Below are positions 24,001 through 49,320 of a stretch of 64,000 nt of DNA, in pieces. Each line of letters begins with the position of its first letter. The first letter of the stretch is position 1. The notes under the pieces are model-generated. The model ran no database searches and was not told the DNA's origin. It was given only the letters and a program-made list of their open reading frames with translations. The translations under genes and the position numbers were made by a program. Location: the NCBI GenBank assembly GCA_963804525.1, contig CAWDQO010000003.1, positions 16,687 to 80,686 of the forward strand, given 5' to 3'. The DNA is from an uncultured Thermoplasmata archaeon (GTDB lineage Archaea > Thermoplasmatota > Thermoplasmata > Lutacidiplasmatales > UBA184).

Positions 24001-24129
24001 TAGATGCGGCCGACCTTTATCCCGCTCCCGACCGTCGGACGCCACATGGAGACCTCGGACGGACCGATCCGGAATGCCGAGGCGGTCTTCGTCTCCCCCG
24101 CGTCGAGCTCCGTTCGAGGGTCGCGGGGC

Positions 24130-27100
24130 ATGCAATTGAGCTCCAGTCCCGCGCCGGCCCCATCGGCCCGTCGAGTCTCCCCTCCGAATCGTTGCCAGGA
24201 TCGACGGGGCCAACGGGGGCCCCGCACGAGTCGGAAGCTCCTCGCCGCGGCGGGAATCCTCGCCCTCGCCGTACTCGCGAGTTCCTTCGCGGGAGTGGGT
24301 GGGACCGTCCGCGGGGACCCGCCCTCCGGCCCTTCCGCGATCTCGAGTCGCTCCCTCTCGACGCCTGCCGGGACCGCCAGCGAGCTTCGGGCGTTGGCGG
24401 CGACCGCGTGTCCCGGGGCGTACACCCCCCAAAACGTCACGATCGTCAACGGCACCACGAATCGGGTGACGGCGAGCATCCCCGTCGGCACGGAGCCAAG
24501 TGCCCTCGTGACGGACACGGCCACGGGGGACCTATTCGTGACGAACTGGGGCTCATCGAACGTGAGCGTGCTGAACGGGTCGACGAACGACCTCGTGGCG
24601 ACCATCCCCGTGGGAAGCTCCCCTCGCGGGATCGCCTACGATCGCGCGAACGGCGACCTCTACGTCGCGAATTACCTCGTGGCCCCGGCGGCCGTGACCG
24701 TCCTCAGCGGCTCGAACCTCACCCGAATCGCGACGATCTCGATCCCGCTCAGCAACCTGCCGAGCACGTTCGCGGTGGACACGGCGACCGACACCATCTA
24801 CGTCGGGAACGGGAACTCGAACTACGTCAACGTGATCAACGGGACGACGAACCAACTCGCGGGGAACATCGCCGTCCCCTCGGACCCGTACGCGATGGCG
24901 ATCGACCCGGCGACGGGGGAACTCTACGCCCTCGACGAGCAGTCGGCGAACGTGAGCGTCATCAACACGACGTCCAACGTCGTCGTCGCGAACATCTCCG
25001 TCGGGATGTACCCCGTGGCCCTCGCGTTCGGCCCGATGGACCAGGACGCCTACATCGTCGACGCCGGCATCGCCAGCGGAAACGTCAGCGTGATCGACGT
25101 GGCGAACGACTCGGTGGTCGCCACGATTCCCGCGGGGCTCTCCCCGAACGGGATCGCGTTCGATGCTTCGAACCGCGAGGTCTACGTCTCGAACCAGTCG
25201 GCGAGGGCCCCGTACGGGGGCAACGTCGCCATTGTCAACACCACGACCAATACGGTCGTCGCGAACGTCAGCGTGGGGGCCGAGGACCATTCCCCGGTCG
25301 CGGATGCGGCGAACGGAGACGTCTACGTCGCGGACTTCGGTCCGGGGGATGTGGACGTGATCAACGGCTCCACGAACCGGCTGCTCCCCCCGGTCGCGAG
25401 TTGGAACGGGTCCGACGGGGCGAGCGACGTGCTCGTGGATTCCTCCAACGGGAACATCTACGTCCTGAACCAGGCCTTCTGGAGCGGCGTCACGACCTAC
25501 GAGCTCAGCTTCTCCGAGACGGGTCTTCCGGCGGGGACGAACTGGACGGTCGGACTCACCGCCTCGTGGGGGTCGACGGGATTCCCCACCTACGAATCGT
25601 CGACGCTCGGCTGCATCTGGTTCGAGGGGTACAACGCCACGTACGCGTTCACGGCGCGCCTCACGTCTCCCGCCGTCAATTGGACCTACGTGGCCTCCCC
25701 CGCGTCCGGATCCTTCAACGTCAGCGGGGGCCCCGTGAACGAATCGATCGTGTTCACGTTCGAGCCGATCTACCCGGTCGAGTTCAACGAAACCGGGTTG
25801 CCGAACGGGAGTGCCTGGTCTCTGACGTTCGAGGGGTACCCGGAGTCGTCTTCCACCGACACGATCGCTGTGTGGGAACCGAACGGCTCCTACTGGTACA
25901 ACGGTGTCGAGGGGCCCTCGGAGTACGCGGCAGCTCCCAATTCGGGTCGGCTCCTGGTGAACGGGTCGGCGCGGAACATCCCGATCGCATTTTCCACAAA
26001 GACGTTCGACGTCAACTTCACCGAATTCGGGCTTCCCGTCGGCACGACGTGGTCGGTCGACCTCGGTGGTGACACTCAGTCCAGCGCGTCGCGGGGTATC
26101 CCGTTCGAGGAGCCGTCCGGGAATTACTCGTACACCGTCGGCGCGGTTCCGGGCTACATCGCGACTCCGACCGCCGGCACCGTGACGGTGGTCGGCTGGA
26201 ACCAGTCGATCCTTCTGAAGTTCGGACCGATCCTCTACCCGGCCAACTTCACGGTCTCGGGGCTGCCGAGCGGGACGTCCTGGACGGTCGACCTCAACGG
26301 GACCGAGCTTTCCTCGACCGGAACCGTCATCTCGTTCCAGGAGCCGGCCGGGATCTATCCGTACTCGATCCCCCAGCTCGCGGGGTACTACTCGGCGCTC
26401 CAAGGGACGGTCACCGTCGGTGCCCCCGGGGTCACGCAATCGGTGGTGTTCGCCCCGATCGTCTTTTCCCTGACGTTCCGGGAGGCCGGATTGCCGAACG
26501 GGACCGGTTGGGGGGTGGCGATCGGGTCCTCCATCGAAACGACGCTGGGGGCGACGGTCACCTTCCCGGACGAGACCAACGGGACGTACGGGTATGTCGT
26601 GCTCTCCATCTCCGGGTACACGACGACCTATTCCGGGATCGCCGTCGTGAACGGGACCGACCGAACGGTCGAGGTACTGTTCGTTCCTCAAACGTTCCCG
26701 GTCGTCATCGTCGAGTTCGGCCTCGCCAACGGCACGAACTGGAGCGTGACGATCACGAACGCCTCTGCCGGGTTCAACGAGACGCACTGGTCGACGACCG
26801 AGGCGATCGTCTTCGACCTCCCCAATGGGACCTACGCGGTCTCGGTCGCCCTGCCGACGGGGTACACGTTCGCGCTCACCGCCACCCAGCTCACCGTGGC
26901 GGGTCGGGCGACGTCCGGACCGACTCTGAACGCGCAGTCGACGGCTCCCCCATCCTCCCGGGGCGTCCCGCCGGAGGGCTCGGGAACCCGGCCTGCGGGG
27001 TCCCCGGATCTGCCCGGTCGAACTCCTGGGGCTCGCGTTGGCGATCGCTGCCGTCCTCGTGGGGGCTTGGGTCCTCCGTCGCAGGCCCCCCCGGCCGGCT

Positions 27101-27169
27101 CGACCGCCCTTGTCGTTCCCAGATGCACCGCCGAAGGTGGTCCCGGAGAAACCATCGTTTCGGAGGTAG
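24130..27169 (+). CDS. Giant surface protein: YVTN beta-propeller repeats, six GLPxGTxW modules and a C-terminal TM anchor; frame broken about 26940-27020
   Basis: The start is the ATG at codon 43 of ORF 24004..27576. There are about ten repeats of the type NxVSVINxxTNxVVATIxVGxxPxGIAxDxxNGxLYVAN. The TM anchor ELLGLALAIAAVLVGAWVLRRR and a TAG at 27167-27169 lie in the +1 frame. The track frame instead runs on as R/G-rich text across the next gene. Confidence 0.8.
25498..26930 (+). repeat. Six tandem modules of about 77-91 aa, each starting [YF]xxxFxExGLPxGTxWSV
   Basis: Module starts, read from the sequence, are at about 25498, 25771, 26005, 26235, 26464 and 26695, a period of about 230-273 nt. 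Each contains a later PNGTY/GNYSY...GY segment. Confidence 0.8.
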
Positions 27170-27255
27170 GAGGGACGCAACGCCCCGGGTCGGGCGGACG
27201 CGCAGGACGGTCCTCGGGGGCCGCCCGTCCAGGACAGCCCCCTCGGGCGGCCCGG

Positions 27256-27534
27256 TCAGGCGTCATCCGTGATGGCGCGGGGCCGGGGGATGACCTTCGG
27301 CTGGTCGGCATCGGTGGGCATTCCCGACTTCCCCTCGACGATGTCGCAGTCCTGCCAGTTCACGCCGACCGTGACCTTCGGGAAGGCGACCTTGATCGTG
27401 TAGGTGGCGAGCTTCCCGACGACCAGCCCGTTCGCCCCCTCGACGAGGTTCGGGTTCATGATGGAGAGGTCCCGGGTGAGGACGACGCGGGTCTTGCCGA
27501 AGACGATCCGCTGGAGCTCCTCCCGGTTCTTCAT
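27256..27534 (-). CDS. Hypothetical 92-aa protein
   Basis: The composition is protein-like (MKNREELQRIVFGKTRVVLTRDLSIMNPNLVEG...). An AT-rich TTTAAG element lies about 38 nt upstream. I recognise no family. Confidence 0.55.
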   Translation of the reverse strand: MKNREELQRIVFGKTRVVLTRDLSIMNPNLVEGANGLVVGKLATYTIKVAFPKVTVGVNWQDCDIVEGKSGMPTDADQPKVIPRPRAITDDA

Positions 27535-27649
27535 CGGGGGTCCCTGCGCGCGCGCGTAGCGGCCTCCCGTTCTTAAACTCGCGGCGTCGGGAGCGGCCGA
27601 GAAGGGTATTTAGAGGGAACCGCGGTGCCTCCGACGCGCCGGGGCCCGA

Positions 27650-27859: not shown

Positions 27860-28565
27860 CCACGCCCCGCTCGGCGCCCCGCTCTTCGTCCTCAACCTGA
27901 AGGCGTACCCGAACTGCCTCGGCCCCGGGGCGGCCAAGATCGGCACCGCTCTCGCCAAGGAGGGCCACCGTCTCGGCATCTCGGTCGCGATCTGCCCGTC
28001 GGCCCCGGACCTCGGCACCCTGGCGGCCCTGCTCCCGGTCCCCGTCCTCGCCCAGCACGTCGACCCGGAGGACCCCGGAGCCCACACGGGATCGATCGTC
28101 GCCGAGGCGCTCGCCGCCTCCGGCGTCTCCGGGAGCCTCCTCAACCACTCGGAGCATCCGATGGCCGAGGACGACCTCGGGCGGGTCGTCGCCCACTTGC
28201 AATCCCTCGGCCTCGTACCCGTCGTCTGCGCGAAGGACGTCGACGATTCCCGCCGGCTCGCCCGCTCCCGACCCGCCTACCTCGCCGTCGAGCCGCCGGA
28301 GCTGATCGGGGGAGACCGCTCGGTCGCCACGGCCCGCCCGGAGGTGGTCCGGGACGCCGTCGCGGCGGTCCGGGAGGTTTCCCCGGCCACCCGCGTCCTC
28401 TGTGGGGCCGGAGTCCGGGACCGGAACGACGTCCGCATCGCCCTCGAGCTCGGGGCCGTCGGGGTCCTCGTCGCGAGCGCGGTGACGCGGGTCGCCGACT
28501 GCGACGAGGCGATCGGCGAACTTCTTGCCGGGTATCCTACCCGCCACCCGTCCCCCCGTCCCTGA
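27858..28565 (+). CDS. tpiA: Triosephosphate isomerase, archaeal short type; start codon not identifiable
   Basis: Motifs are PLFVLNLKAY, LAQHVDPEDPGAHTGS, LLNHSEH, AVEPPELIGG and LCGAGV. The only in-frame start is ATG 27714, which gives an S/R/T-rich extension overlapping the upstream ORF. There is no ATG, GTG or TTG between 27860 and the conserved core. Confidence 0.85.
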   Translation, partial: DHAPLGAPLFVLNLKAYPNCLGPGAAKIGTALAKEGHRLGISVAICPSAPDLGTLAALLPVPVLAQHVDPEDPGAHTGSIVAEALAASGVSGSLLNHSEHPMAEDDLGRVVAHLQSLGLVPVVCAKDVDDSRRLARSRPAYLAVEPPELIGGDRSVATARPEVVRDAVAAVREVSPATRVLCGAGVRDRNDVRIALELGAVGVLVASAVTRVADCDEAIGELLAGYPTRHPSPRP

Positions 28566-28578
28566 ACTCGTCGCTGGC

Positions 28579-29558
28579 ATGCCGGAGCCGACCGACCCCG
28601 CGTCCTCGGACGTGGTCGGGATCGACCTCGGCGGCACGAAGATCGCGGCGGCGTTCGTCGACCCCTCCGGCCGATTGAGTTCCGAAGTCCTCCGCCGCAA
28701 CCACTCGAACGCGGGGCCGGAGGCGGTGACCGGCGAGGTCGTCTGGTTGGTGCGTCAGCTGGAGGAGCGTACCGGCTGGCACCCCCGGGGGGTGGGGATC
28801 GGCATCGCGGCGCAGGTCGACCGCGGGACGGGGGTCGTGCATCACGCGCCCAACCTCCGCTGGTCGAACATACCGCTCGGCGCGCGGCTCGGCGCGGAGC
28901 TCGGTGTCCCGGTGGCCGTTCTCAACGACGCCCGGGCCGCCACGGTCGGGGAGTGGCGTCACGGCGCCGGGCAGGGCGTGGACGACCTCCTCGTGGTCTT
29001 CGTGGGGACCGGCATCGGCGGAAGCGTCGTGCTGGGCGGGCGGCTCCCGGAGGGCGCCGACGGGGCGATCGGAGAGGTCGGCCATGCGATCCTCGTCGCG
29101 AACGGCCGCAAGTGCCACTGCCCGGGGCGGGGGTGCCTCGAGGCGTACGCTTCCGGATGGGCGGTCGCGGACCGCGCCCGAGAGGCGATTTTGGCGGACC
29201 CCGAGCGCGGCGCCACGCTGATCGCGGCGTCGGGGGGCCCGGACCTCGTCTCTGCGGAATCGGTCGGCCGTGCGGCCCGGTCCGGGACCCGCTCGCCAGC
29301 ACTCTCCGGGACGACTCGCTCGGATACCTCGGCGCGGGAGTCGCCGGGCTGGTGAACGCCTTCAATCCCCGCCGAGTTCTGTTGGGGGGAGGTGTGGTGG
29401 AGGGTTGGCCGGAAACCCTCCCCGCGGTCCAGGACGCTGTCCGGGGCCACTGTCAGCCCCCCGCACGGAACGCGGAGGTCCGACAGGTCGCGCTCGGGGC
29501 GAACGCGGTGCTGATCGGAGCGGCGAGCTGGGCGCGCCGGGCCGCGCCGACCCGATAG
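28579..29558 (+). CDS. ROK-family glucokinase; frame broken at the GGG run at 29284-29286
   Basis: Motifs are VVGIDLGGTKIAAA, VGTGIGGSVV and GHAILVANGRKCHCPGRGCLEAYASG. The text then runs ...RAARSG | DPLASTLRDDSLGYLGAGVAGLVNAFNPRRVLLGGGV in the -1 frame. Adding one G restores the familiar AR.GDPLA context. Confidence 0.85.
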
Positions 29559-29649: not shown

Positions 29650-30648
29650 TTAGGTGAGGCGGTACTCGCGCCGCCGGGAATCGACGAGCGAGACCCCTTC
29701 CCGGACCAACCCTTGGCGGCGGAGCGACTCGAGGCCGCTCTGGACCGTCCGTCGTGGGAGACGCGAGAGTCGGACGAGCTCGGACTGGTCCAGACCCCGG
29801 TAAGTCTCGAGGAGGAAGTAGAGGAATTTCGTGGCCGGGGGACCCCGGACCGACCGCGAGGAGCGGATGCTGCCGAACGTGTCGCCCCGCAGCCCAAGCC
29901 GCTCGCTCGCCAACGGCCCGACGGAACTGAGGGCGATGTTCCCGAGGTTCGTCTCGGACCCGAGCTCCTTGAGGAGCGCGACCTGCTGGGACTCCTGGGG
30001 GGCCTCGAAGATCAGCTCCTCGGCAGGGTGGTCGGCGACGATCGCGCGCACCCAATCCCACTTGATGGCGCCTTCCCCGTCGTAGATTCCCACCCCCCGT
30101 CCGGACTCCCGACTCTCGATGATGACCTTCCGGGGGTTGAGGGCAAGGGCCTGACCGATCCGGTCGAGCGTCTCCCGGAGGGAGAGCTGGTTCTGGGGAT
30201 TCTTCTTCCCGACCTCGATGAACACCCCGAGCCGGTGGGACTTGACCTCCTCGGCCAGCTTCGCGATCTGGGTGGCCGCCATTTCGATGACCCCATCGGA
30301 GACCTCGACGATATCGAACCCGAGCTCCTTGGCCTCGCTAATCGCGGCCGAGGCGCGGTCCCGCGCCACCGCGTACTCGAGGAGCGTACCCCCGGTCGAC
30401 ACCTCGACCCCGAGGTCGTGGTAGAACCGAATCCGTTTCCGGACCTGTTCCCGGGGGAGCAGCAGCGGGAGCCCCCATCCGATCTTGACGACGTCGATGT
30501 ATCGCGCGAGCGGCTTGAGCCACTCTTCGGAGAGAGGGTCGAGCCGGTCGAGAACGTGGGTCATCCCGGTCTTGCGAGGCCGGGTCGGGTTCGCCGGGTC
30601 GGACGGAAAGAACGTAGATGCGGGCTTCCGGTGCGCCGGGATTGCCAT
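29650..30648 (-). CDS. comA: Phosphosulfolactate synthase (ComA family) fused to a C-terminal winged-helix domain
   Basis: The start is the ATG at codon 80 of ORF 29650..30885. Motifs are YIDVVKIGWG, STGGTLLEYA, LGFDIVEVSDG, IIESRESG, LIFEAPQESQQVALLKELG and LGLRGDTFG. About 75 extra residues follow: FLYFLLETYRGLDQSELVRLSRLPRRTVQSGLESLRRQGLV...RRREYRL. Confidence 0.85.
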   Translation of the reverse strand: MAIPAHRKPASTFFPSDPANPTRPRKTGMTHVLDRLDPLSEEWLKPLARYIDVVKIGWGLPLLLPREQVRKRIRFYHDLGVEVSTGGTLLEYAVARDRASAAISEAKELGFDIVEVSDGVIEMAATQIAKLAEEVKSHRLGVFIEVGKKNPQNQLSLRETLDRIGQALALNPRKVIIESRESGRGVGIYDGEGAIKWDWVRAIVADHPAEELIFEAPQESQQVALLKELGSETNLGNIALSSVGPLASERLGLRGDTFGSIRSSRSVRGPPATKFLYFLLETYRGLDQSELVRLSRLPRRTVQSGLESLRRQGLVREGVSLVDSRRREYRLT

Positions 30649-30955
30649 CGTTCCCGCCTCTTGGGCGCCGGTCCCAGTTTTTGGCGGTATAAAGTCCTCG
30701 TGGGGGGGCCGCGGACGCGTGCCGCAATTCTCGCATCGATTGAGACGGCTCGGGCCGCGATCGGACGGCGGCCTGGACCGCACCTCCCCACCGTCGAGAT
30801 CGGACCGGGCCGTCGCGGAGCAGCCCTCCGGCGGTCCAACGGACGACTCCGGTCTTTCGACACGGGGAGGTCTGGCGCCCCCCATGGCGGGGAGTATCTC
30901 GCGGGTAACTCAGGGCGTTAAGCGGGGGGACGGAGTGCGGTCCCGGGAGAGAGCC

Positions 30956-31600
30956 ATGAAAGTTGGGATCATCGGGTCGGGAGAAGTTGGCCAGCACCTC
31001 GGGACGGGTTTTGCCGCTACCGGCCACGAGGTGATGGTCGGGAGCCGCGAACCCGCCAGTGAAAAACTCGCCAAGTGGACATCGGCTGCCGGCCCGAAGG
31101 CCTCCACGGGGACGTTCGCCGACGCTGCGAAGTTCGGCGAACTGGTGGTCGTCGCGACGCTCTGGAGCGGGACCGAAAGTGCCCTCCGGCTCGCGGCCCC
31201 CGCCAACCTCGCCGGCAAGGTCGTGATCGACGCGACCAACCCGCTCGCCTTCCGTGAGAACGGTCCCCCCGGGCTCGCGCTCGGGCACACCGATTCCGGC
31301 GGGGAGCAAGTCCAGAGGTGGCTGCCGAGCTCGCACGTCGTGAAAGCGTTCAACATCGTCGGCAACGAGGACATGTTCCGTCCGGAGTTTCCCGGCGGCC
31401 CACCGGACATGTTCTTTTGCGGCAACGACGAGGGTGCGAAGAAGTCGGTCGCAGCCATTCTGCAGTCGTTCGGTTGGAACCCCGTCGACATCGGGGGATT
31501 GGAGGGCGCTCGCCTCATGGAGTCCCTGTGCCTTCTCTGGGTGGGATACATGTTCCGGACCGGGTCGCGCCACCACGCGCTGAAGATGCTCCACCGCTGA
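30956..31600 (+). CDS. NADPH-dependent F420 reductase-like oxidoreductase (NpdG / F420-dependent NADP oxidoreductase family)
   Basis: The start is the ATG at codon 158 of ORF 30485..31600. The Rossmann motif is MKVGIIGSGEVGQ, followed by VVIDATNPL and VVKAFN. Confidence 0.75.
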   Translation: MKVGIIGSGEVGQHLGTGFAATGHEVMVGSREPASEKLAKWTSAAGPKASTGTFADAAKFGELVVVATLWSGTESALRLAAPANLAGKVVIDATNPLAFRENGPPGLALGHTDSGGEQVQRWLPSSHVVKAFNIVGNEDMFRPEFPGGPPDMFFCGNDEGAKKSVAAILQSFGWNPVDIGGLEGARLMESLCLLWVGYMFRTGSRHHALKMLHR

Positions 31601-31676: not shown

Positions 31677-31695
31677 ACTATACATATGCATATGA
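31677..31695 (+). promoter_or_regulatory. AT-rich TATA-like element overlapping the perfect 12-bp palindrome CATATGCATATG, directly upstream of vapB
   Basis: The sequence is TAACTATACATATGCATATGACTATGCATG. The palindrome spans 31684-31695 and the vapB ATG is at 31702. Confidence 0.55.
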
Positions 31696-31701
31696 CTATG
31701 C

Positions 31702-31917
31702 ATGTCGTCCCGAAACGTCGCCGTTCGAATGGACGTCTACGACGCGCTCCGAAAGGAGCGTCGCCCTCAGGAGAGCTTCACGAAGCTCTTCCTCCGCCTG
31801 ATGAGCCAGAAGACCCCGATCGAACAGACCGTCGGAGCGTGGGGGAGGTTCGACCGTCGACGGGCGGGCCGCCTCCTCCACGAGCTCCGCGGCGGGTCCC
31901 CCGGGGGTCGACGGTGA
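31702..31917 (+). CDS. vapB: VapB-type antitoxin (COG1753-like archaeal antitoxin)
   Basis: It begins MSSRNVAVRMDVYDALRKERRPQESFTKLFLRLM. It is small and basic, and its stop overlaps the PIN gene start (GTGA). Confidence 0.7.
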   Translation: MSSRNVAVRMDVYDALRKERRPQESFTKLFLRLMSQKTPIEQTVGAWGRFDRRRAGRLLHELRGGSPGGRR

Positions 31918-32312
31918 AGGGGTTCGATACCCCCGTGCTCCTCGAGATCCTCGAGGGGAGACCGGCGGCGGCGAAGCTCCTGAACCGCCTGTCGGGAGAG
32001 GAGCTCTGCACGACGGAGGCGAACCTCTTCGAGCTCGAGGCGATCGCACGTCAGGAGCGCGGACCGGCCCTCGAAAAGCGACTTGCCGCGCTCGCGCGAC
32101 TCCGACGGGGCCTCACCGTCCTCGCGCTCGACGAGACGGCCGCGAGGACCGCGGGGGCCAGGTGGAGAGACGGCGGCCAGGGCCTGACCGCGCAAGCCTG
32201 GATGGTGTTCGGCGCCCTGGAGGCGAACGGTTGCACCGAGTGGTTGACCTCCCGCGGAGCAGCGTTCCCGAAGGTCCCTGGGAAGCTCCGTGTCAATCGC
32301 TGCGTACCTTAG
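31914..32312 (+). CDS. vapC: PIN-domain ribonuclease toxin VapC
   Basis: VKGFDTPVLLEIL supplies the first acidic residue, TTEANLFELE the second and LALDETAA the third. Confidence 0.72.
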   Translation: MKGFDTPVLLEILEGRPAAAKLLNRLSGEELCTTEANLFELEAIARQERGPALEKRLAALARLRRGLTVLALDETAARTAGARWRDGGQGLTAQAWMVFGALEANGCTEWLTSRGAAFPKVPGKLRVNRCVP

Positions 32313-33256: not shown

Positions 33257-36200
33257 ATGTTGAGGGTTCGACCCTCCACAGCCGTCGTTGTTTTCATCGT
33301 AGCGTTAGCCCTGCTCCTGCCGGGACTTCCCTCGGGGCGAGGCGGCCCGAGTGCGGGTATGCCGCGTGCAGCGGAGCCGACGCTCGGGGAGAGGGTCCTC
33401 CAGGCCGACGACGGCCAGGCGAGCTCCCCGGTCCGCCGGTGTGGGTCCGGCCGTTGCCCTACCGAGCGCCCGCGCCATCGTTTCGGCGCCGCCGCTCCCC
33501 TCTCCTGCCTGGGTCGACCGGACCGTCGAGATCTCCCACCTCTCGCTCTACCCCGGAATGCTCGCGTACGACCCGGCGATTTCCGCGACGGTGGAGTATG
33601 ACGGGTACTTCGGGACCACGTGGGCGTACACCGCGACCGGGTGGACGAACATCACGCCCGCGGTTTCCCCGCCGCCACGGATCTACGGGGGCCTCGCGTA
33701 CGATGCGGCATTCGCCGAACTTGTCCTGTTTGGAGGATACTCGATCCGCTCTGGCGCTCCCCTCAACGATACCTGGGTCTTCCACGGCGGAGCTTGGACG
33801 AACGAGACCTCCGCCGTCTCCCCCTCGCCGCGGTACTCTGTCGGGTTCGCGGCGGACCCGATGAACGCGGGGGTCCTGCTGTACGGTGGATTCCAGAACG
33901 TCACCCCCGACCCGGCATCGAACCAGACGTGGATCTGGAACGCCTCGGGGTGGCACGACCTACCGGGCCCGCCCGGTCTCCCGCCGATCTGGGGTGGGGC
34001 GATCGCCTACGATTCCGTCGACCAACAGGAGGTCGCCTTCGGGGGCTCGAACGTAGTCGGTGGCGTCGTCGTCCTCTCCAACCAGACATGGACGTACGCG
34101 AACGGGGCGTGGACCAACCGAACGACCGCGGGCCCCGGTCCTCGGACTGGGGCGTCGATGGCCGATTATCCCACCCTCGGGGGGGTGGCCCTCTTCGGAG
34201 GGACGAACGGCTCCGCGCTGGCGACGACGTACAACGACACCTGGGTGTTCCACAACAACGCATGGTCGCTGGTCCTCGGCGGCGTGGCGCCGGATTCCCG
34301 CGCTTTCGCGGGGTTCGCCTGGGACACCGCGACCGGCGACGCCGTCCTCGACGGGGGACTTGGCCCCCACGGCGTGGACGGCTCGGAGTTTCACCTGGAC
34401 ACATGGACGTTCCGCGCCGGCGCGTGGAGCGAGGTCCAAGGGAACTACACCCCGGACGACCGCGCTGGGGAAGGGTTCGCCCCGGTCGGGGGTGCCGGCG
34501 TGAGCGCAGTGCTGTTCGGGGGGATCAACGCGACGGGGGCGTACGGGAACGATTCGTGGTCGTTCACCCACGACACCTGGGTCGAGCACCTCGACCCGGC
34601 CGCGCCGCCGGCACGAACCGAATCGATGTTCGCCTCGGACCCGGCCGATGGCTACGACGTCCTGTTCGGCGGGTCAAACAGAACGGAGGTGTTCAACGAC
34701 ACCTGGTCGTACTCTTCGGGACAATGGACGGACCGATCCGGCCCCGCGGCCCCCCAACCCCGGCAAGGAGGTGTGTTCGTGTACGACCCGGTGATCGGAG
34801 AGGACCTCCTCTTCGGCGGCCGGAGCGCCTCGAACCGGACGCTGAACGACACGTGGACCTACCACGGCGGGACCTGGACGGAGATGTTCCCGACGGTGGT
34901 CCCCCCGGCCAGGGCCTTCGCCACCGCCGCCTACGATCATGCGCTGCAAGGCGTGGTCGTGTTCGGCGGGGCGTCGAGCGGGAGCACGCTGACACCCCGT
35001 CCCCTGAACGATACGTGGCTGTACACGAACGGCACGTGGACCCAACTCTCGACTCCCGTCGCGCCGAGCCCCCGATACGCTTCGACGATGGAATTCGACC
35101 CGCGACTCCAGTCGCTCGTGCTGTTTGGAGGTTGGACGTACCCGAACAGCCCGTACGCCGACAACGACACCTGGACCTACGGAGCGAACGGATGGCAGCG
35201 GTTCGGTGTCCACGGCGCCCTGCCGCCGGCAGGGTTTGCTGTCACGTGGTGGGACCCGACGACGAACGCGACGTGGATGTACGGGGGGGCGGCGCTGAAC
35301 CTCACGAGCTCCACGGCGAGCCTTTCGTCCGCCACGCTCGCCCTCGACCTCCTCGGATCCAACGTGACGCTCTCCGGGAGCGGAGGGTCGACCCCGTACC
35401 GGTGGAACTACTCCGCCTCCGCGCGGGACGGGGCTGCGCCGTACCAGGTACTCGTGGAGCCTTCCCGGCGCGACCGGATCGGGCGCAAGCGGCTCCTACA
35501 CGTTCGACACCCCGGGAACCTACGTGGTCCGGCTCAACCTGACCGACGCCTGGGGGGTGGTCTGGAATCGAACGTACGTCATCACGGTCGTTCCGGGCCC
35601 CCTGCTCGTCTCGTTCACCAGCACGCCGAGCTCCGGCTCCGCCCCGCTCCTCGTCACGTTCGCCGCCACGGCCCAGGGGGCGAGCCCTCCGTTCGCGTAC
35701 TCGTGGGACTTCGGGAACGGAGAGACCGCGCCACAGAGCCCGGACCCGAATGCCTCGACCACGTACGTCCACAACGGCACCTACACGGTCACCCTGAACG
35801 TCAGCTCCGGGAACGTCTCGGCGACGCACACGGAGTCCGTTCCGTTGATCTCGCTGGCCCCGTTCCAGATCCAGGCGTCGGTCAGCCCGAGCCACAGCAC
35901 CCCTCCCCTCAACATCTCGTTCTCGGCGAACCCGCTGAACGGGACGCCTCCGTTCGCGTACGACTGGACGTTCGAGGGAGGCGGCAACTCGTCGAAGGCG
36001 TCCGGGTATCACGTCTTCGACACCGCGGCGGTCCCCATTTCGGTCAACTACACGCTCTCGGTGAACGTGACCGACGGGAATGGGACCGTCGTCGGGGAGA
36101 CGTTCCGGGTCTACGTGCTCCCGTACATGTCCGTGCCAGGCTCCCCCTCGAACCGTTCGAGTCCCGCCCCGGGCATCCCCGATTGGGCCTGGGTGCTCGT

Positions 36201-36339
36201 GGGAATCGCGGTGCTGGGGGCCGTCGCCGCCGTCGTTCTCCTTCGCCGCCGGACTCCACCAGCAGGCGGGGAGGCTTCGGCCGGGGCGGCCACGTCGCCG
36301 ATGCCTTGGGATGAGGGCGACACCTCCGGTACGAGGTAG
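33257..36339 (+). CDS. Surface protein: signal peptide, about 11 Kelch-type propeller blades, three PKD domains and a TM anchor; frame broken twice
   Basis: The signal peptide (M)LRVRPSTAVVVFIVALALLLPGL lies in one frame (33257). The Kelch body, with repeated YDxxxxxxxLFGGxxxxxxxNDTWxYxxGxWT, lies in the frame of ORF 33351. After ...GAAPYQ the text continues in the +1 frame as YSWSLPG...YTFDTPGTYVVRLNLTD...FAYSWDFGNGE...FAYDWTFEGGG. The TM anchor is WAWVLVGIAVLGAVAAVVLL. Breaks lie between 33300 and 33430 and at 35447-35449. Confidence 0.8.
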
Positions 36340-47548: not shown

Positions 47549-48205
47549 TCACGTTCGCACGATCCGTCGGAAGAGGTTTTGCTTCCGCATCCGGTGGATC
47601 TCCCGGACGTCGTCGACGTCGTATCGGGTCTGGAGCCACGGGTCCGCGACGTTGGAGTACCCCCGCACTTCCCAGAACCCAGGAGCGTCCTCGGCGACGA
47701 AATCGAGCCCCCGCACCCACTTCGCGCTCTTGTAGAAGTACCGTCGCGGGACGAGCATCCGTACGGGACCGCCGTGCTCGGCCGGGAGCGGGAGACCGTC
47801 GTACGTGTGGGCGAGCAGGACGTCGTCGTCGAGCAGCGCGGCGAGCGGGAGGGAGGTCGTGAACCCTTCCTCACATTCCATGACCACGAACCGGACCGTG
47901 GGGTCGGGGCGGACGAGGTCGACGACCGCCCGGAACGGTACCCCCGCCCATAGGGTGCCCAGCTTGGTCCAGCTCGTCACGCAATGGATGTCGACGACCT
48001 GTTGGTTCTGCGGGAGCGCGAGGAGCCCGGCGAAGTCGAGCGTCTGCGGGTGGTCGACCCGGCCGTGGAGCCGGACCGTCCAGTTCGCCCGGGTCAGCTC
48101 GGAGGGGACCGACCCGGCGTGCAGGACGGGAAACCCGTTCGTGACGACCTGACCGGGCGGGACCCGGACCCGCGCCGCGGGGTCGCCCTCCGCGTCGGGC
48201 GACAT
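47549..48205 (-). CDS. Molybdopterin-binding oxidoreductase (sulfite oxidase / YedY-like catalytic domain)
   Basis: This is the last 218 codons of ORF 47549..49576. Motifs are IHCVTSWTKLGTLWAGVPF, HGGPVRMLVP, YFYKSAKWVRGL and PGFWEVRGY. Confidence 0.82.
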   Translation of the reverse strand: MSPDAEGDPAARVRVPPGQVVTNGFPVLHAGSVPSELTRANWTVRLHGRVDHPQTLDFAGLLALPQNQQVVDIHCVTSWTKLGTLWAGVPFRAVVDLVRPDPTVRFVVMECEEGFTTSLPLAALLDDDVLLAHTYDGLPLPAEHGGPVRMLVPRRYFYKSAKWVRGLDFVAEDAPGFWEVRGYSNVADPWLQTRYDVDDVREIHRMRKQNLFRRIVRT

Positions 48206-48219
48206 CGGGGTCGGCCCCG

Positions 48220-49320
48220 CTAGCGGGCGCCCGGCCGCTCGACCTTCACATCGACCTCGTCGCCCGTCCAGTCGAAGCGGAGCCGGGAGCGGGGCTGCCA
48301 GACCTTCCGGCGGTCCCAGAGGGCGCCCACGAGGAGCGGGAGTCCGATCGAGGCGTCGAGGTGCGCCATCGACCGTGTGGCGGTCTTGGAGATCTTTCCC
48401 CACGATTGCGCCTCGTCGAGGGTCGACCCGGAAAGACCCCCCCAGTGCGGGACGTCGGTCGTGATCTGGAGCGCATAGAAGTGCCCCTCCCCTTCGCGGC
48501 CGAAGGCGTAGTTCGCCATGACGATTCCGTCGTTGATCCAATTCTTCGGCGTTCCGCCCCCGATGTAGACGACGGCCGTCCTGGGCGAGTGGGCGAGGAT
48601 CTGGACGAGCTCGTAGTTGTCCCGGACCGCGTCGAGGAGGAACCGGGGTTTGCCGCGGTGCTTCTGGTAGTGGAGCGTGAGGCCGATCCCGATCGAGCTG
48701 TCGATGAGCGCGGGGGAGAACACGGGGACTCCGCGGCGGGCGGCGGTGGCGACGATCGAATCGGGGTTGTCGAACCGCTCGCCGAGGAACCGGAGGTACT
48801 CCCGGGACGACGCCGGGCGGGCCGGGAACTCCTCGGTCACCGCGCCGATCGCCCGGTCGGTGTCCTCGAACTTCAGTTCGTCGACGTACGTGTCGTAGAT
48901 CCGGTCGAGGTAGAGCTCGCGGAGCTGGACGTCGTCGGCGGTCGGGGTCCCGACCCAATGCTTCCCGCCGATCGTCTGGTAGATGTCCTGGTAGAGGACG
49001 GCGCCGGTGGAGACGACGACGTCGACGAGACCCCAGTCGATGGCGTCGCGGATCACCTTCCGGAGTCCCGCGGCGATCAGCGGACCGGAGAGCCCCAGGA
49101 AGATGGTGGGCCGCTTCCGGTCGGTGAGGGCGTTCTCCCAGACCTCGAGCGCCCGGCCGAGGTTGCGCGCCTGGATGGAGGTTCCCTGGAACTGGCGCAG
49201 AAGCGCCCCAAGGCCGTCGACCTCGGTGACGTCGACCGGCACGACGCTCTTCTTCAGGATCGCCCGGCGCGCGGCGTCGATCTTCTTCGACACGGCCCCG
49301 CGCAACGAGGGGCCGTTCAT
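48220..49320 (-). CDS. dys: Deoxyhypusine synthase
   Basis: Motifs are LGLSGPLIAAGLR, VVVSTGA, IGGGTPKNW and TLDEAQSWGKI. Confidence 0.92.
   Translation of the reverse strand: MNGPSLRGAVSKKIDAARRAILKKSVVPVDVTEVDGLGALLRQFQGTSIQARNLGRALEVWENALTDRKRPTIFLGLSGPLIAAGLRKVIRDAIDWGLVDVVVSTGAVLYQDIYQTIGGKHWVGTPTADDVQLRELYLDRIYDTYVDELKFEDTDRAIGAVTEEFPARPASSREYLRFLGERFDNPDSIVATAARRGVPVFSPALIDSSIGIGLTLHYQKHRGKPRFLLDAVRDNYELVQILAHSPRTAVVYIGGGTPKNWINDGIVMANYAFGREGEGHFYALQITTDVPHWGGLSGSTLDEAQSWGKISKTATRSMAHLDASIGLPLLVGALWDRRKVWQPRSRLRFDWTGDEVDVKVERPGAR

What the first reader, a model, noticed from the sequence alone, without database searches (positions are those of the whole stretch)
29650..30648. Phosphosulfolactate synthase (ComA) fused to a winged-helix DNA-binding domain, with no other coenzyme M genes nearby
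The first ~255 aa match ComA closely (IFEAPQESQQVALLKELG, LGLRGDTFG, EVSDG, IIESRESG). The ORF then continues for about 75 aa with a clear HTH plus wing: DQSELVRLSRLPRRTVQSGLESLRRQGLV...RRREYRL.

An enzyme-wHTH fusion suggests a metabolite-sensing regulator or a moonlighting enzyme. No comB, comC or comDE genes are adjacent, and the rest of the window does not look methanogenic. The enzyme may therefore act in sulfolactate or sulfonate metabolism rather than CoM synthesis.
Basis: partly seen in the sequence, partly recalled or inferred. Interest (0 to 1): 0.55.

Follow-up and report, generated by a model that had tools for sequence, protein, structure and literature searches.

The report
ComA enzyme fused to DNA-binding domain
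A soil archaeon that makes no methane carries a sulfite-capturing enzyme (phosphosulfolactate synthase) joined in one protein to a DNA-binding domain, and this undescribed fusion, common in two archaeal phyla, is probably a sulfur-related gene switch rather than a coenzyme M enzyme.

Summary
Window 29650-30648 (-) encodes a 332-aa protein. It has a complete ComA barrel (Pfam E 1.3e-68; model matches PDB 1QWG, TM 0.89), a short linker, and a 65-aa winged helix whose model matches MarR-family DNA-binding domains (TM 0.8-0.89).

It is not a frameshift artefact. More than 100 independent assemblies give the same full-length frame, and 73 of 121 genomes of the order carry it, always fused. Reads could not be inspected.

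The genome (Lutacidiplasmatales, 81% complete) showed no comB, comC, comDE, mcrA, cysH or sulfite reductase. It has sat and APS kinase.

In relatives the gene sits beside sulfur genes: sat/APS kinase, a dehydrogenase and a phosphodiesterase in Thermoplasmata, cysH-sat-sir in Thermogymnomonas, and sulfonate-type ABC importers in Nitrososphaerota. A palindrome (CGCA-N5-TGCG) marks the gene's promoter in many relatives, and a similar site lies upstream of cysH-sat-cysC operons.

In this window the promoter palindrome has decayed and the neighbours are not sulfur genes, so this copy's targets are unknown.

Best reading: a sulfite/PEP-responsive regulator that probably keeps catalysis.

The scan had already found this fusion on at least ten other genomes.

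The parts
29650..30648 (-). CDS of the ComA-wHTH fusion protein (332 aa plus stop)
   Evidence: Translation. Full-length homologues of 332-336 aa at 66-92% identity.
29881..30591 (-). ComA (phosphosulfolactate synthase) (beta/alpha)8 barrel, residues 20-256
   Evidence: Pfam PF02679 at 231.5 bits against a cut-off of 25.2. PDB 1QWG at E 6.6e-48 by sequence. Foldseek 1QWG TM (target) 0.89, rmsd 2.0 A. All family-wide near-invariant columns are kept.
29848..29880 (-).
   Evidence: pLDDT dips to 73-84 in residue blocks 251-270, with no secondary structure. The frame is continuous here in all homologues.
29653..29847 (-). Winged helix-turn-helix, residues 268-332 (H271-283, H288-295, recognition helix H299-311 starting LPRRTVQ, wing 315-331)
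   Evidence: AF2 tail model pLDDT 94.7. Foldseek top 50 hits are almost all MarR-family regulators, several DNA-bound, TM (query) 0.8-0.89. Pfam TrmB and MarR_2 are hit by 49 and 48 of 51 family tails.
30688..30693 (-). TATA-like box (TTTATA) about 42 nt upstream of the start codon
   Evidence: Read from the sequence. An AT-rich box lies at the same distance in nearly all 78 related loci.
30661..30671 (-). Box CCGGCGCCCAA, conserved in the closest relatives at the place where more distant relatives carry the palindrome CGCA-N5-TGCG
   Evidence: Upstream regions lined up. This window's copy scores only 3.4 against the family matrix, so it is degenerate.
30649..30955 (.). 307-bp divergent intergenic region between the fusion gene and an npdG-like F420-type oxidoreductase gene (starts at 30956, + strand)
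   Evidence: The same neighbour occurs in the closest relatives. The NCBIfam npdG match is below its cut-off.

Best explanation
The gene encodes a one-component sulfur-state regulator built from an enzyme. An intact PEP- and sulfite-binding ComA barrel is joined by a flexible linker to a MarR/TrmB-type winged helix. The proposed mechanism is as follows. The barrel binds sulfite and PEP and probably still condenses them to phosphosulfolactate. Occupancy of the barrel changes how the winged helices of the oligomer sit on a palindromic operator (about GyGCA-N5-TGCrC) that lies over the transcription start of its own gene. In relatives a similar site lies upstream of the cysH-sat-cysC sulfate-activation operon. 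Gene expression would thereby be tied to sulfite supply.

Shown here: the architecture, its conservation, the intact conserved barrel residues, the gene linkage to sulfur genes across two phyla, and the recurring palindrome.

Inferred: the ligand, DNA binding itself, the direction of regulation, and retained catalysis.

In this particular genome the gene has been separated from the sat/APS-kinase cluster, its own operator has decayed and no cysH was found. Its present targets are therefore unknown. One candidate is a sulfite-oxidase-family gene on contig 5.
For: Architecture and fold.

Conservation: the tail's recognition helix (R299 R300 T301 V302 Q303) and wing residues (D323, R325, Y329) are invariant in an 11-sequence set down to 41% identity. 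R300 is invariant and T301 at least 90% conserved across 24 fused sequences down to 27% identity. This fits a conserved DNA target.

Barrel residues: every column that is at least 90% conserved across 110 fused and stand-alone ComA sequences is kept. This includes K149, which aligns with Lys137 of 1QWG.

Sole copy: it is the only ComA homologue in the genome. All 73 copies found in 121 genomes of the order are fused.

Linkage in 77 Thermoplasmata loci: a short-chain dehydrogenase lies directly downstream on the same strand in 38. A type I phosphodiesterase lies directly upstream in 18. ATP sulfurylase lies directly upstream in 5 (within four genes in 8) and APS kinase lies within four genes in 6.

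Linkage elsewhere: in Thermogymnomonas acidicola the gene is divergent from cysH-sat-sulfite reductase-siroheme genes. In Nitrososphaerota it is divergent from SsuA/NMT1-type ABC importers.

cysH co-occurrence: all 11 genomes of the genus with a true cysH also carry the fusion.

Operator: CGCA-N5-TGCG is exact in 9 of 78 own promoters against 8 of 13,049 control windows. With one mismatch or fewer it is 25 of 78 against 316 of 13,049. It lies between the TATA box and the start codon.

Second site: a matrix trained only on those promoters places its best hit at -112 to -122 upstream of cysH in 9 of 10 unlinked cysH-sat-cysC operons. Per-window empirical p ranges from 0.0015 to 0.15.

Sulfite as a plausible metabolite: PMC9287336 predicts that this order forms sulfite from thiosulfate and oxidises it.
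Against: No binding or enzyme assay exists.

This window's own promoter does not match the operator matrix (score 3.4). Neither do the sat and APS-kinase upstream regions of this genome.

The operator-like site before the sulfite-oxidase-family gene on contig 5 scores 10.6 with the matrix trained on own promoters only, and 14.2 with the wider matrix. It is not kept in the two closest orthologous promoters. It recurs in only one of the other nine orthologues of at least 49% identity.

Exact palindromes elsewhere in five relatives' genomes are mostly inside genes and are rarer than a control pattern. Any regulon is therefore small.

The cysH-upstream loci are related to one another, so they count as about four independent observations.

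M. jannaschii ComA serves as a trimeric building block (the designed I3 icosahedral cage 9cm1). A trimer does not obviously pair winged helices on a two-fold site.

The conserved promoter element could instead be a start-site or leader feature.
Confidence: 0.5

Rival explanations
1. It is first of all a working phosphosulfolactate synthase in a non-methanogen sulfonate pathway. Sulfite plus PEP would give phosphosulfolactate. The neighbouring phosphodiesterase-family enzyme would dephosphorylate it and the short-chain dehydrogenase would oxidise it. The winged helix would only tune the gene's own expression or serve a structural role.
For: All conserved ComA columns are intact. It is the only ComA copy in the genome. 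The dehydrogenase is directly downstream in 38 of 77 loci at a median gap of 57 nt, and the phosphodiesterase directly upstream in 18. B. subtilis has a ComA homologue (PSL synthase, PDB 1U83) outside methanogenesis.
Against: No ComB or ComC family member was found. Both candidate partner enzymes are generic families with no specific annotation. In this genome they are not adjacent: the dehydrogenase homologue is only 48% identical and lies on another contig. This reading does not explain the divergent placement next to cysH-sat-sir or ABC importers in other phyla. It also does not explain the near-invariant recognition helix.
Confidence: 0.27
2. The barrel no longer catalyses anything. It is purely a ligand-binding sensor domain for a transcription factor.
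For: In the Nitrososphaeraceae cluster (P0167, P0301) and a marine member (P0263), several family-invariant barrel positions are replaced. Examples are FEAP to FDTD and GGTLLE to DSKITD. Some lineages have therefore probably lost catalysis while keeping the tail. The protein scores below NCBI's equivalog cut-off for archaeal ComA (213 against 280 bits).
Against: In this protein and its whole Thermoplasmata clade, every conserved barrel column is retained over divergence down to about 60% identity. That is more than ligand binding alone would usually require.
Confidence: 0.18
3. The fusion is an assembly indel that joined a normal comA to a small separate wHTH gene.
For: The assembly does carry frame breaks close by: ROK at about 29286, and two phosphodiesterase genes on contig 2.
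Against: The same continuous frame occurs in more than 100 independent clusters, in 80 of 80 fetched genome loci and in 73 genomes of the order, with no internal stops. It also occurs in the cultured Thermogymnomonas acidicola.
Confidence: 0.01

Closest known systems
Phosphosulfolactate synthase ComA (M. jannaschii MJ0255, PDB 1QWG; B. subtilis PSL synthase, PDB 1U83)
   Same: Same barrel: about 38% identity to 1QWG, TM 0.89 for 1QWG and 0.87 for 1U83, and all family-conserved residues kept.
   Different: The known enzymes are stand-alone proteins of about 250 aa that end where the linker begins here. No solved structure covers both domains. The coenzyme M pathway partners were not found. The score is below the NCBIfam equivalog cut-off.
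MarR- and TrmB-type winged-helix regulators (for example MepR, AdcR, HpaR, E. coli MarR bound to DNA)
   Same: The wHTH core superposes at 0.8-1.5 A rmsd over 62-67 columns. Weak but consistent Pfam TrmB and MarR_2 matches occur across the family.
   Different: Only the 65-aa wHTH core is present. The N- and C-terminal dimerisation helices that define MarR proteins, and the TrmB sugar-binding domain, are absent. Oligomerisation would have to come from the barrel.
Enzyme-fused one-component regulators such as BirA, and archaeal RbkR (riboflavin kinase with wHTH) and ThiR (ThiN domain with HTH); comparison drawn from my own knowledge
   Same: Same logic: a metabolic enzyme domain supplies ligand sensing to a covalently attached DNA-binding domain that controls genes of the same pathway.
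   Different: Here the DNA-binding domain is C-terminal, the enzyme is a TIM barrel acting on sulfite and PEP, and the pathway (sulfur assimilation or sulfite handling in archaea) has no described regulator of this type. I found no paper on this fusion.

Membership tests
ComA / phosphosulfolactate synthase family (PF02679) | Full-length match above Pfam's gathering score | tested here: met
   231.5 bits against 25.2, profile positions 3-243 of 243.
ComA / phosphosulfolactate synthase family (PF02679) | (beta/alpha)8 barrel like 1QWG | tested here: met
   AF2 pLDDT 92.2. Foldseek 1QWG TM (target) 0.89, rmsd 2.0 A over 243 columns.
ComA / phosphosulfolactate synthase family (PF02679) | Family-invariant barrel residues retained, including the Lys equivalent to Lys137 of 1QWG (its catalytic role is from my memory of the structure paper, which is not held in the library) | tested here: met
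   All columns at least 90% conserved in 110 sequences are kept. K149 aligns with chain residue 137.
Archaeal ComA equivalog (NCBIfam TIGR03849), meaning the coenzyme M enzyme itself | Score above the curated equivalog cut-off | tested here: not met
   213.1 bits against a cut-off of 280.
Archaeal ComA equivalog (NCBIfam TIGR03849), meaning the coenzyme M enzyme itself | Pathway context: comB, comC, comDE and a CoM user such as Mcr | tested here: not met
   No PF04029, PF02615, TIGR03845 or PF02249 match in the 80.8%-complete genome.
Archaeal ComA equivalog (NCBIfam TIGR03849), meaning the coenzyme M enzyme itself | Catalyses PEP plus sulfite to (2R)-phospho-3-sulfolactate | not testable with these tools
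   Needs an enzyme assay.
MarR family transcription factors | Winged helix-turn-helix fold | tested here: met
   Tail model pLDDT 94.7. MarR-family hits at TM (query) 0.8-0.89.
MarR family transcription factors | Pfam MarR, MarR_2 or TrmB match above the gathering score | tested here: not met
   The tail alone scores MarR_2 22.1 against 27 and TrmB 20.5 against 25.6. Relatives reach E 4e-9.
MarR family transcription factors | Flanking helices that form the MarR dimer interface | tested here: not met
   The tail is only H1-H2-H3-wing, 65 aa, and ends at the wing. The aligned MarR targets are 124-180 aa.
MarR family transcription factors | Sequence-specific binding to a palindromic operator | tested here: inconclusive
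   A palindrome is enriched at relatives' own promoters and upstream of cysH. It is absent from this window's promoter. No binding data exist.

The most novel reading that the evidence does not exclude
ComA-wHTH is the missing regulator of sulfur assimilation in aerobic archaea (Thermoplasmatota and Nitrososphaerota). It would sense sulfite enzymatically: the barrel converts sulfite and PEP into phosphosulfolactate, and that turnover or product sets DNA binding at the cysH-sat-cysC, sulfonate-importer and sulfite-oxidase promoters. This would be a 'catalytic sensor' for a toxic intermediate.
Probability: 0.2. Interest if true: 0.8.

Novelty: new variant of a known kind. Interest (0 to 1): 0.55.

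Why it matters
To my knowledge, how archaea control sulfate activation, sulfite handling and sulfonate uptake is essentially unknown, and I found no paper on this fusion. Databases name these several hundred proteins 'phosphosulfolactate synthase'. That label wrongly implies coenzyme M synthesis in organisms where no methanogenesis genes were found. If the fusion is a sulfite-linked switch, it would give a testable regulator, a candidate operator and a cultured host (Thermogymnomonas acidicola). It would also correct pathway inference in soil Thermoplasmata and ammonia-oxidising archaea.

Tried and rejected
- **Homodimer prediction.** Complex prediction with two copies of the whole protein gave no verdict (score 0.02). 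It is not used either way.
- **ComA structure paper.** It is not held in the library. One literature search was wasted on a residue name.
- **Locus search with a wide alignment.** The search for related loci failed for lack of a conserved stretch. A narrower alignment worked.
- **Operator scan of this genome.** It gave 120 hits at score 11 or above, too many to read as a regulon. The hit at the start of APS kinase lies inside coding sequence. The sat and APS-kinase upstream regions have no match.
- **Exact palindrome GCGCA-N5-TGCGC in five relatives' genomes.** There were 4-6 per genome, fewer than a control pattern. Apart from the own promoters, nearly all were inside genes. One lay between coxD-like and coxE-like genes and was taken as chance.
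- **Sulfite-oxidase promoters of relatives.** The site is not conserved in the two nearest orthologues.
- **Class IV aminotransferase near the gene.** I considered it as a cysteate-forming step. It is an ordinary IlvE above the equivalog cut-off, so I dropped it.
- **Tree of barrel domains.** It cannot tell one fusion event from one loss. Stand-alone ComA forms one starred clade and fused forms make up the rest.

Full report
**1. What is there**

On the minus strand, 29650-30648 is one open frame of 332 aa. The mechanical ORF runs back to 30885. However, homologues begin at the ATG at 30648, and a TTTATA box lies at 30688-30693, about 42 nt upstream.

Residues 20-256 match Pfam ComA from end to end (231.5 bits, E 1.3e-68). 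They match M. jannaschii ComA (1QWG) at E 6.6e-48.

An AlphaFold2 model built on 110 sequences has mean pLDDT 92.2. Its best PDB matches are:
- 1QWG: TM 0.89 by target, rmsd 2.0 A
- 9cm1: a designed icosahedral cage built from ComA
- 1U83: B. subtilis PSL synthase, TM 0.87

Every column that is at least 90% conserved in 110 fused and stand-alone ComA sequences is kept in this protein. This includes K149, which aligns with residue 137 of 1QWG. From memory, that residue is the proposed catalytic lysine. The structure paper is not held in the library.

After an 11-residue linker of lower confidence, residues 268-332 form helix, helix, recognition helix and a two-stranded wing. The tail modelled alone has pLDDT 94.7. 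Its top 50 PDB matches are almost all MarR-family regulators, several bound to DNA. TM by query is 0.8-0.89 and rmsd about 1-1.5 A.

By sequence, this tail scores below Pfam's cut-offs (MarR_2 22.1 bits, TrmB 20.5 bits). Even so, 49 of 51 family tails hit TrmB and 48 hit MarR_2, with E-values down to 4e-9.

**2. It is not an artefact**

- The protein search returned more than 100 clusters of 332-336 aa at 66-91% identity and full coverage. They come from JGI, NCBI, ENA and Logan assemblies.
- At 50% clustering, about 17 further clusters of 320-340 aa align through to residue ~330 at identities as low as 28%.
- All 80 best genome loci cover the tail. The nearest is Ca. Lutacidiplasma silvani at 92%.
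- In a sample of 121 genomes of the order, 73 carry the gene (45 of 71 high-quality genomes). Each copy is full-length with no internal stop, and no stand-alone ComA was seen.
- Reads could not be examined.
- The assembly does have frame breaks nearby: the ROK gene at about 29286 and two phosphodiesterase genes on contig 2.

**3. Who has it**

Named members come from these groups:
- soil and peat Thermoplasmata MAGs
- the cultured Thermogymnomonas acidicola
- Nitrososphaerota MAGs, including a 143-member Nitrososphaeraceae cluster
- a Tara Oceans contig

On a tree of the barrel alone, stand-alone ComA forms one well-supported clade and the fused forms make up the rest. A single fusion or a single loss is not excluded.

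**4. Genome inventory**

The assembly is 2.19 Mb in 6 contigs and 80.8% complete. It has a single ComA homologue.

Not found:
- ComB, Ldh_2 (ComC) and McrA
- sulfopyruvate decarboxylase, and cysteate synthase above its cut-off
- PAPS/APS reductase and sulfite reductase

Present:
- ATP sulfurylase and APS kinase on contig 2, next to glycogen genes and two phosphodiesterase genes
- two sulfite-oxidase-family genes, one of them in the window at about 47672-48115

The missing cysH is probably real. Only 11 of 41 genomes of the genus have a true cysH, and several relatives that are 95-99% complete lack it.

The published description of this order predicts sulfite formation from thiosulfate and its oxidation by that oxidase. 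It does not mention ComA (PMC9287336).

**5. Neighbourhood**

In this window the gene is flanked by:
- a divergent npdG-like oxidoreductase gene
- a PIN toxin gene
- a convergent ROK kinase gene
- triosephosphate isomerase

The closest relatives have the same neighbours. None of these is a sulfur gene.

Across 77 Thermoplasmata loci a different pattern appears:
- A short-chain dehydrogenase lies directly downstream on the same strand in 38, at a median gap of 57 nt.
- A type I phosphodiesterase lies directly upstream in 18.
- ATP sulfurylase lies directly upstream in 5 (within four genes in 8), and APS kinase lies within four genes in 6.
- ROK, GH15, GH57 and TIM genes lie beyond these.

So this genome appears to have split an older cluster. 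Its sat, APS kinase, phosphodiesterases and glycogen genes are now on contig 2, while the fusion gene stays with ROK and TIM.

Outside this clade:
- T. acidicola has the gene head to head with cysH-sat-sulfite reductase-siroheme genes.
- One relative, G011, has a 45%-identical second type of the fusion head to head with cysH-sat.
- Two Nitrososphaerota loci place it head to head with SsuA/NMT1-type ABC importers.
- All 11 genomes of the genus with a true cysH also carry the fusion.

**6. A candidate operator**

Upstream regions of the related loci cannot be aligned as a whole. Most still share an AT-rich box at about -45 and a motif near -22 to -16. In many of them the motif is the palindrome CGCA-N5-TGCG.

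| Match | Own promoters (60 nt) | Control 60-nt windows, same loci |
|---|---|---|
| Exact | 9 of 78 | 8 of 13,049 |
| One mismatch or fewer | 25 of 78 | 316 of 13,049 |

A matrix trained only on these promoters was then run on ten cysH-sat-cysC operons that lie elsewhere in their genomes. In nine, its best hit falls at -112 to -122 from cysH, upstream of the TATA box. Per-window empirical p values are 0.0015, 0.0044, 0.0088, 0.012, 0.019, 0.044, 0.08, 0.15 and 0.15. These loci are related to one another, so they amount to roughly four independent observations.

The near-invariant recognition helix (RRTVQ) and wing residues fit one conserved DNA target.

Limits of this evidence:
- This window's own promoter keeps only a degenerate right half (CCGGCGCCCAA, 30661-30671) and scores 3.4.
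- The sat and APS-kinase promoters of this genome do not match.
- Perfect palindromes elsewhere in five relatives' genomes are few and mostly inside genes.
- A good site (CGTGCGAATCCTGCAC) lies 35-50 nt before a sulfite-oxidase-family gene on contig 5, just after a TTAAT box. It is not kept in the two nearest orthologous promoters and recurs in only one more distant orthologue.

**7. Reading**

The best-supported model is an enzyme-derived one-component regulator of sulfur state that probably still catalyses sulfite capture (confidence 0.5). Three rivals were considered:
- mainly an enzyme of an unrecognised sulfonate pathway, with the dehydrogenase and phosphodiesterase as partners (0.27)
- a non-catalytic sensor (0.18); some Nitrososphaeraceae members have replaced conserved barrel residues, but this clade has not
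- an assembly artefact (0.01)

**8. Comparison and novelty**

The barrel is a member of the ComA family. It is not an equivalog of the coenzyme M enzyme: it scores 213 against a cut-off of 280 bits and the pathway partners were not found.

The tail shares only the wHTH core with MarR and TrmB proteins and lacks their dimerisation or sensor parts.

In logic it resembles BirA, RbkR or ThiR (my own knowledge). I found no paper describing this fusion, and databases call it plain phosphosulfolactate synthase.

**9. Earlier scan notes**

This scan had already noted the fusion on at least ten other genomes. Follow-ups there reached similar readings. I re-checked their linkage claims on independent loci.

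**10. Unpublished genomes**

G016, G030 and G044 are included in the tallies. G016 supplies one of the ten cysH loci (L100). G152 is one of the five genomes. No conclusion rests on them alone.

Noticed in passing
window 28525-29558 (+), break at about 29286: The ROK-family kinase gene convergent with the fusion gene is split into two frames. Residues 12-236 of a relative's ROK match frame 1 and residues 237-320 match frame 3. This is either a pseudogene or an assembly indel.
   Followed up: partly
G000 contig 2, about 98553-101409 (outside the window): Two tandem type I phosphodiesterase genes are homologues of the gene that precedes the fusion in 18 relatives' loci. Both are broken into several frames in this assembly. 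They lie about 6 kb from APS kinase and ATP sulfurylase.
   Followed up: partly
window about 47672-48115 (-): A sulfite-oxidase-family (Oxidored_molyb) domain lies inside a 759-aa open frame, about 17 kb from the fusion gene. A second copy lies on contig 5.
   Followed up: partly
L103 2231-2246 (G000 contig 5, about 49120-49135, minus strand): The near-palindrome CGTGCGAATCCTGCAC lies 35-50 nt upstream of the start codon of the contig-5 sulfite-oxidase-family gene, right after a TTAAT box. It is a possible operator, but it is not conserved in the two nearest orthologous promoters.
   Followed up: yes
L092 1480-2496 (-) and matches in G052, G093, G033: Some genomes of the genus carry a second ComA-wHTH type, 45-47% identical to the first. 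In G011 it is head to head with cysH-sat. Its recognition helix reads KRRTVQ.
   Followed up: partly
L089 1630-2616 (-) and 6001-6981 (+): A Nitrososphaeraceae contig carries two ComA-family genes (328 and 326 aa) flanking a sulfonate-type ABC importer. The barrels of this cluster have lost several family-invariant residues.
   Followed up: partly
window 24004-27576 (+) and 33351-36314 (+): Very large open frames are rich in N-x-S/T sequons. Relatives' versions carry Kelch and PKD repeats. They are probably glycosylated surface proteins, and the 3' parts of the frames look over-extended.
   Followed up: no
window 31686-32312 (+) and 31702-31917 (+): A PIN-domain (VapC-like) gene with a small overlapping upstream ORF, probably a VapBC pair, lies next to the npdG-like gene. 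The same pair recurs in many related loci.
   Followed up: no
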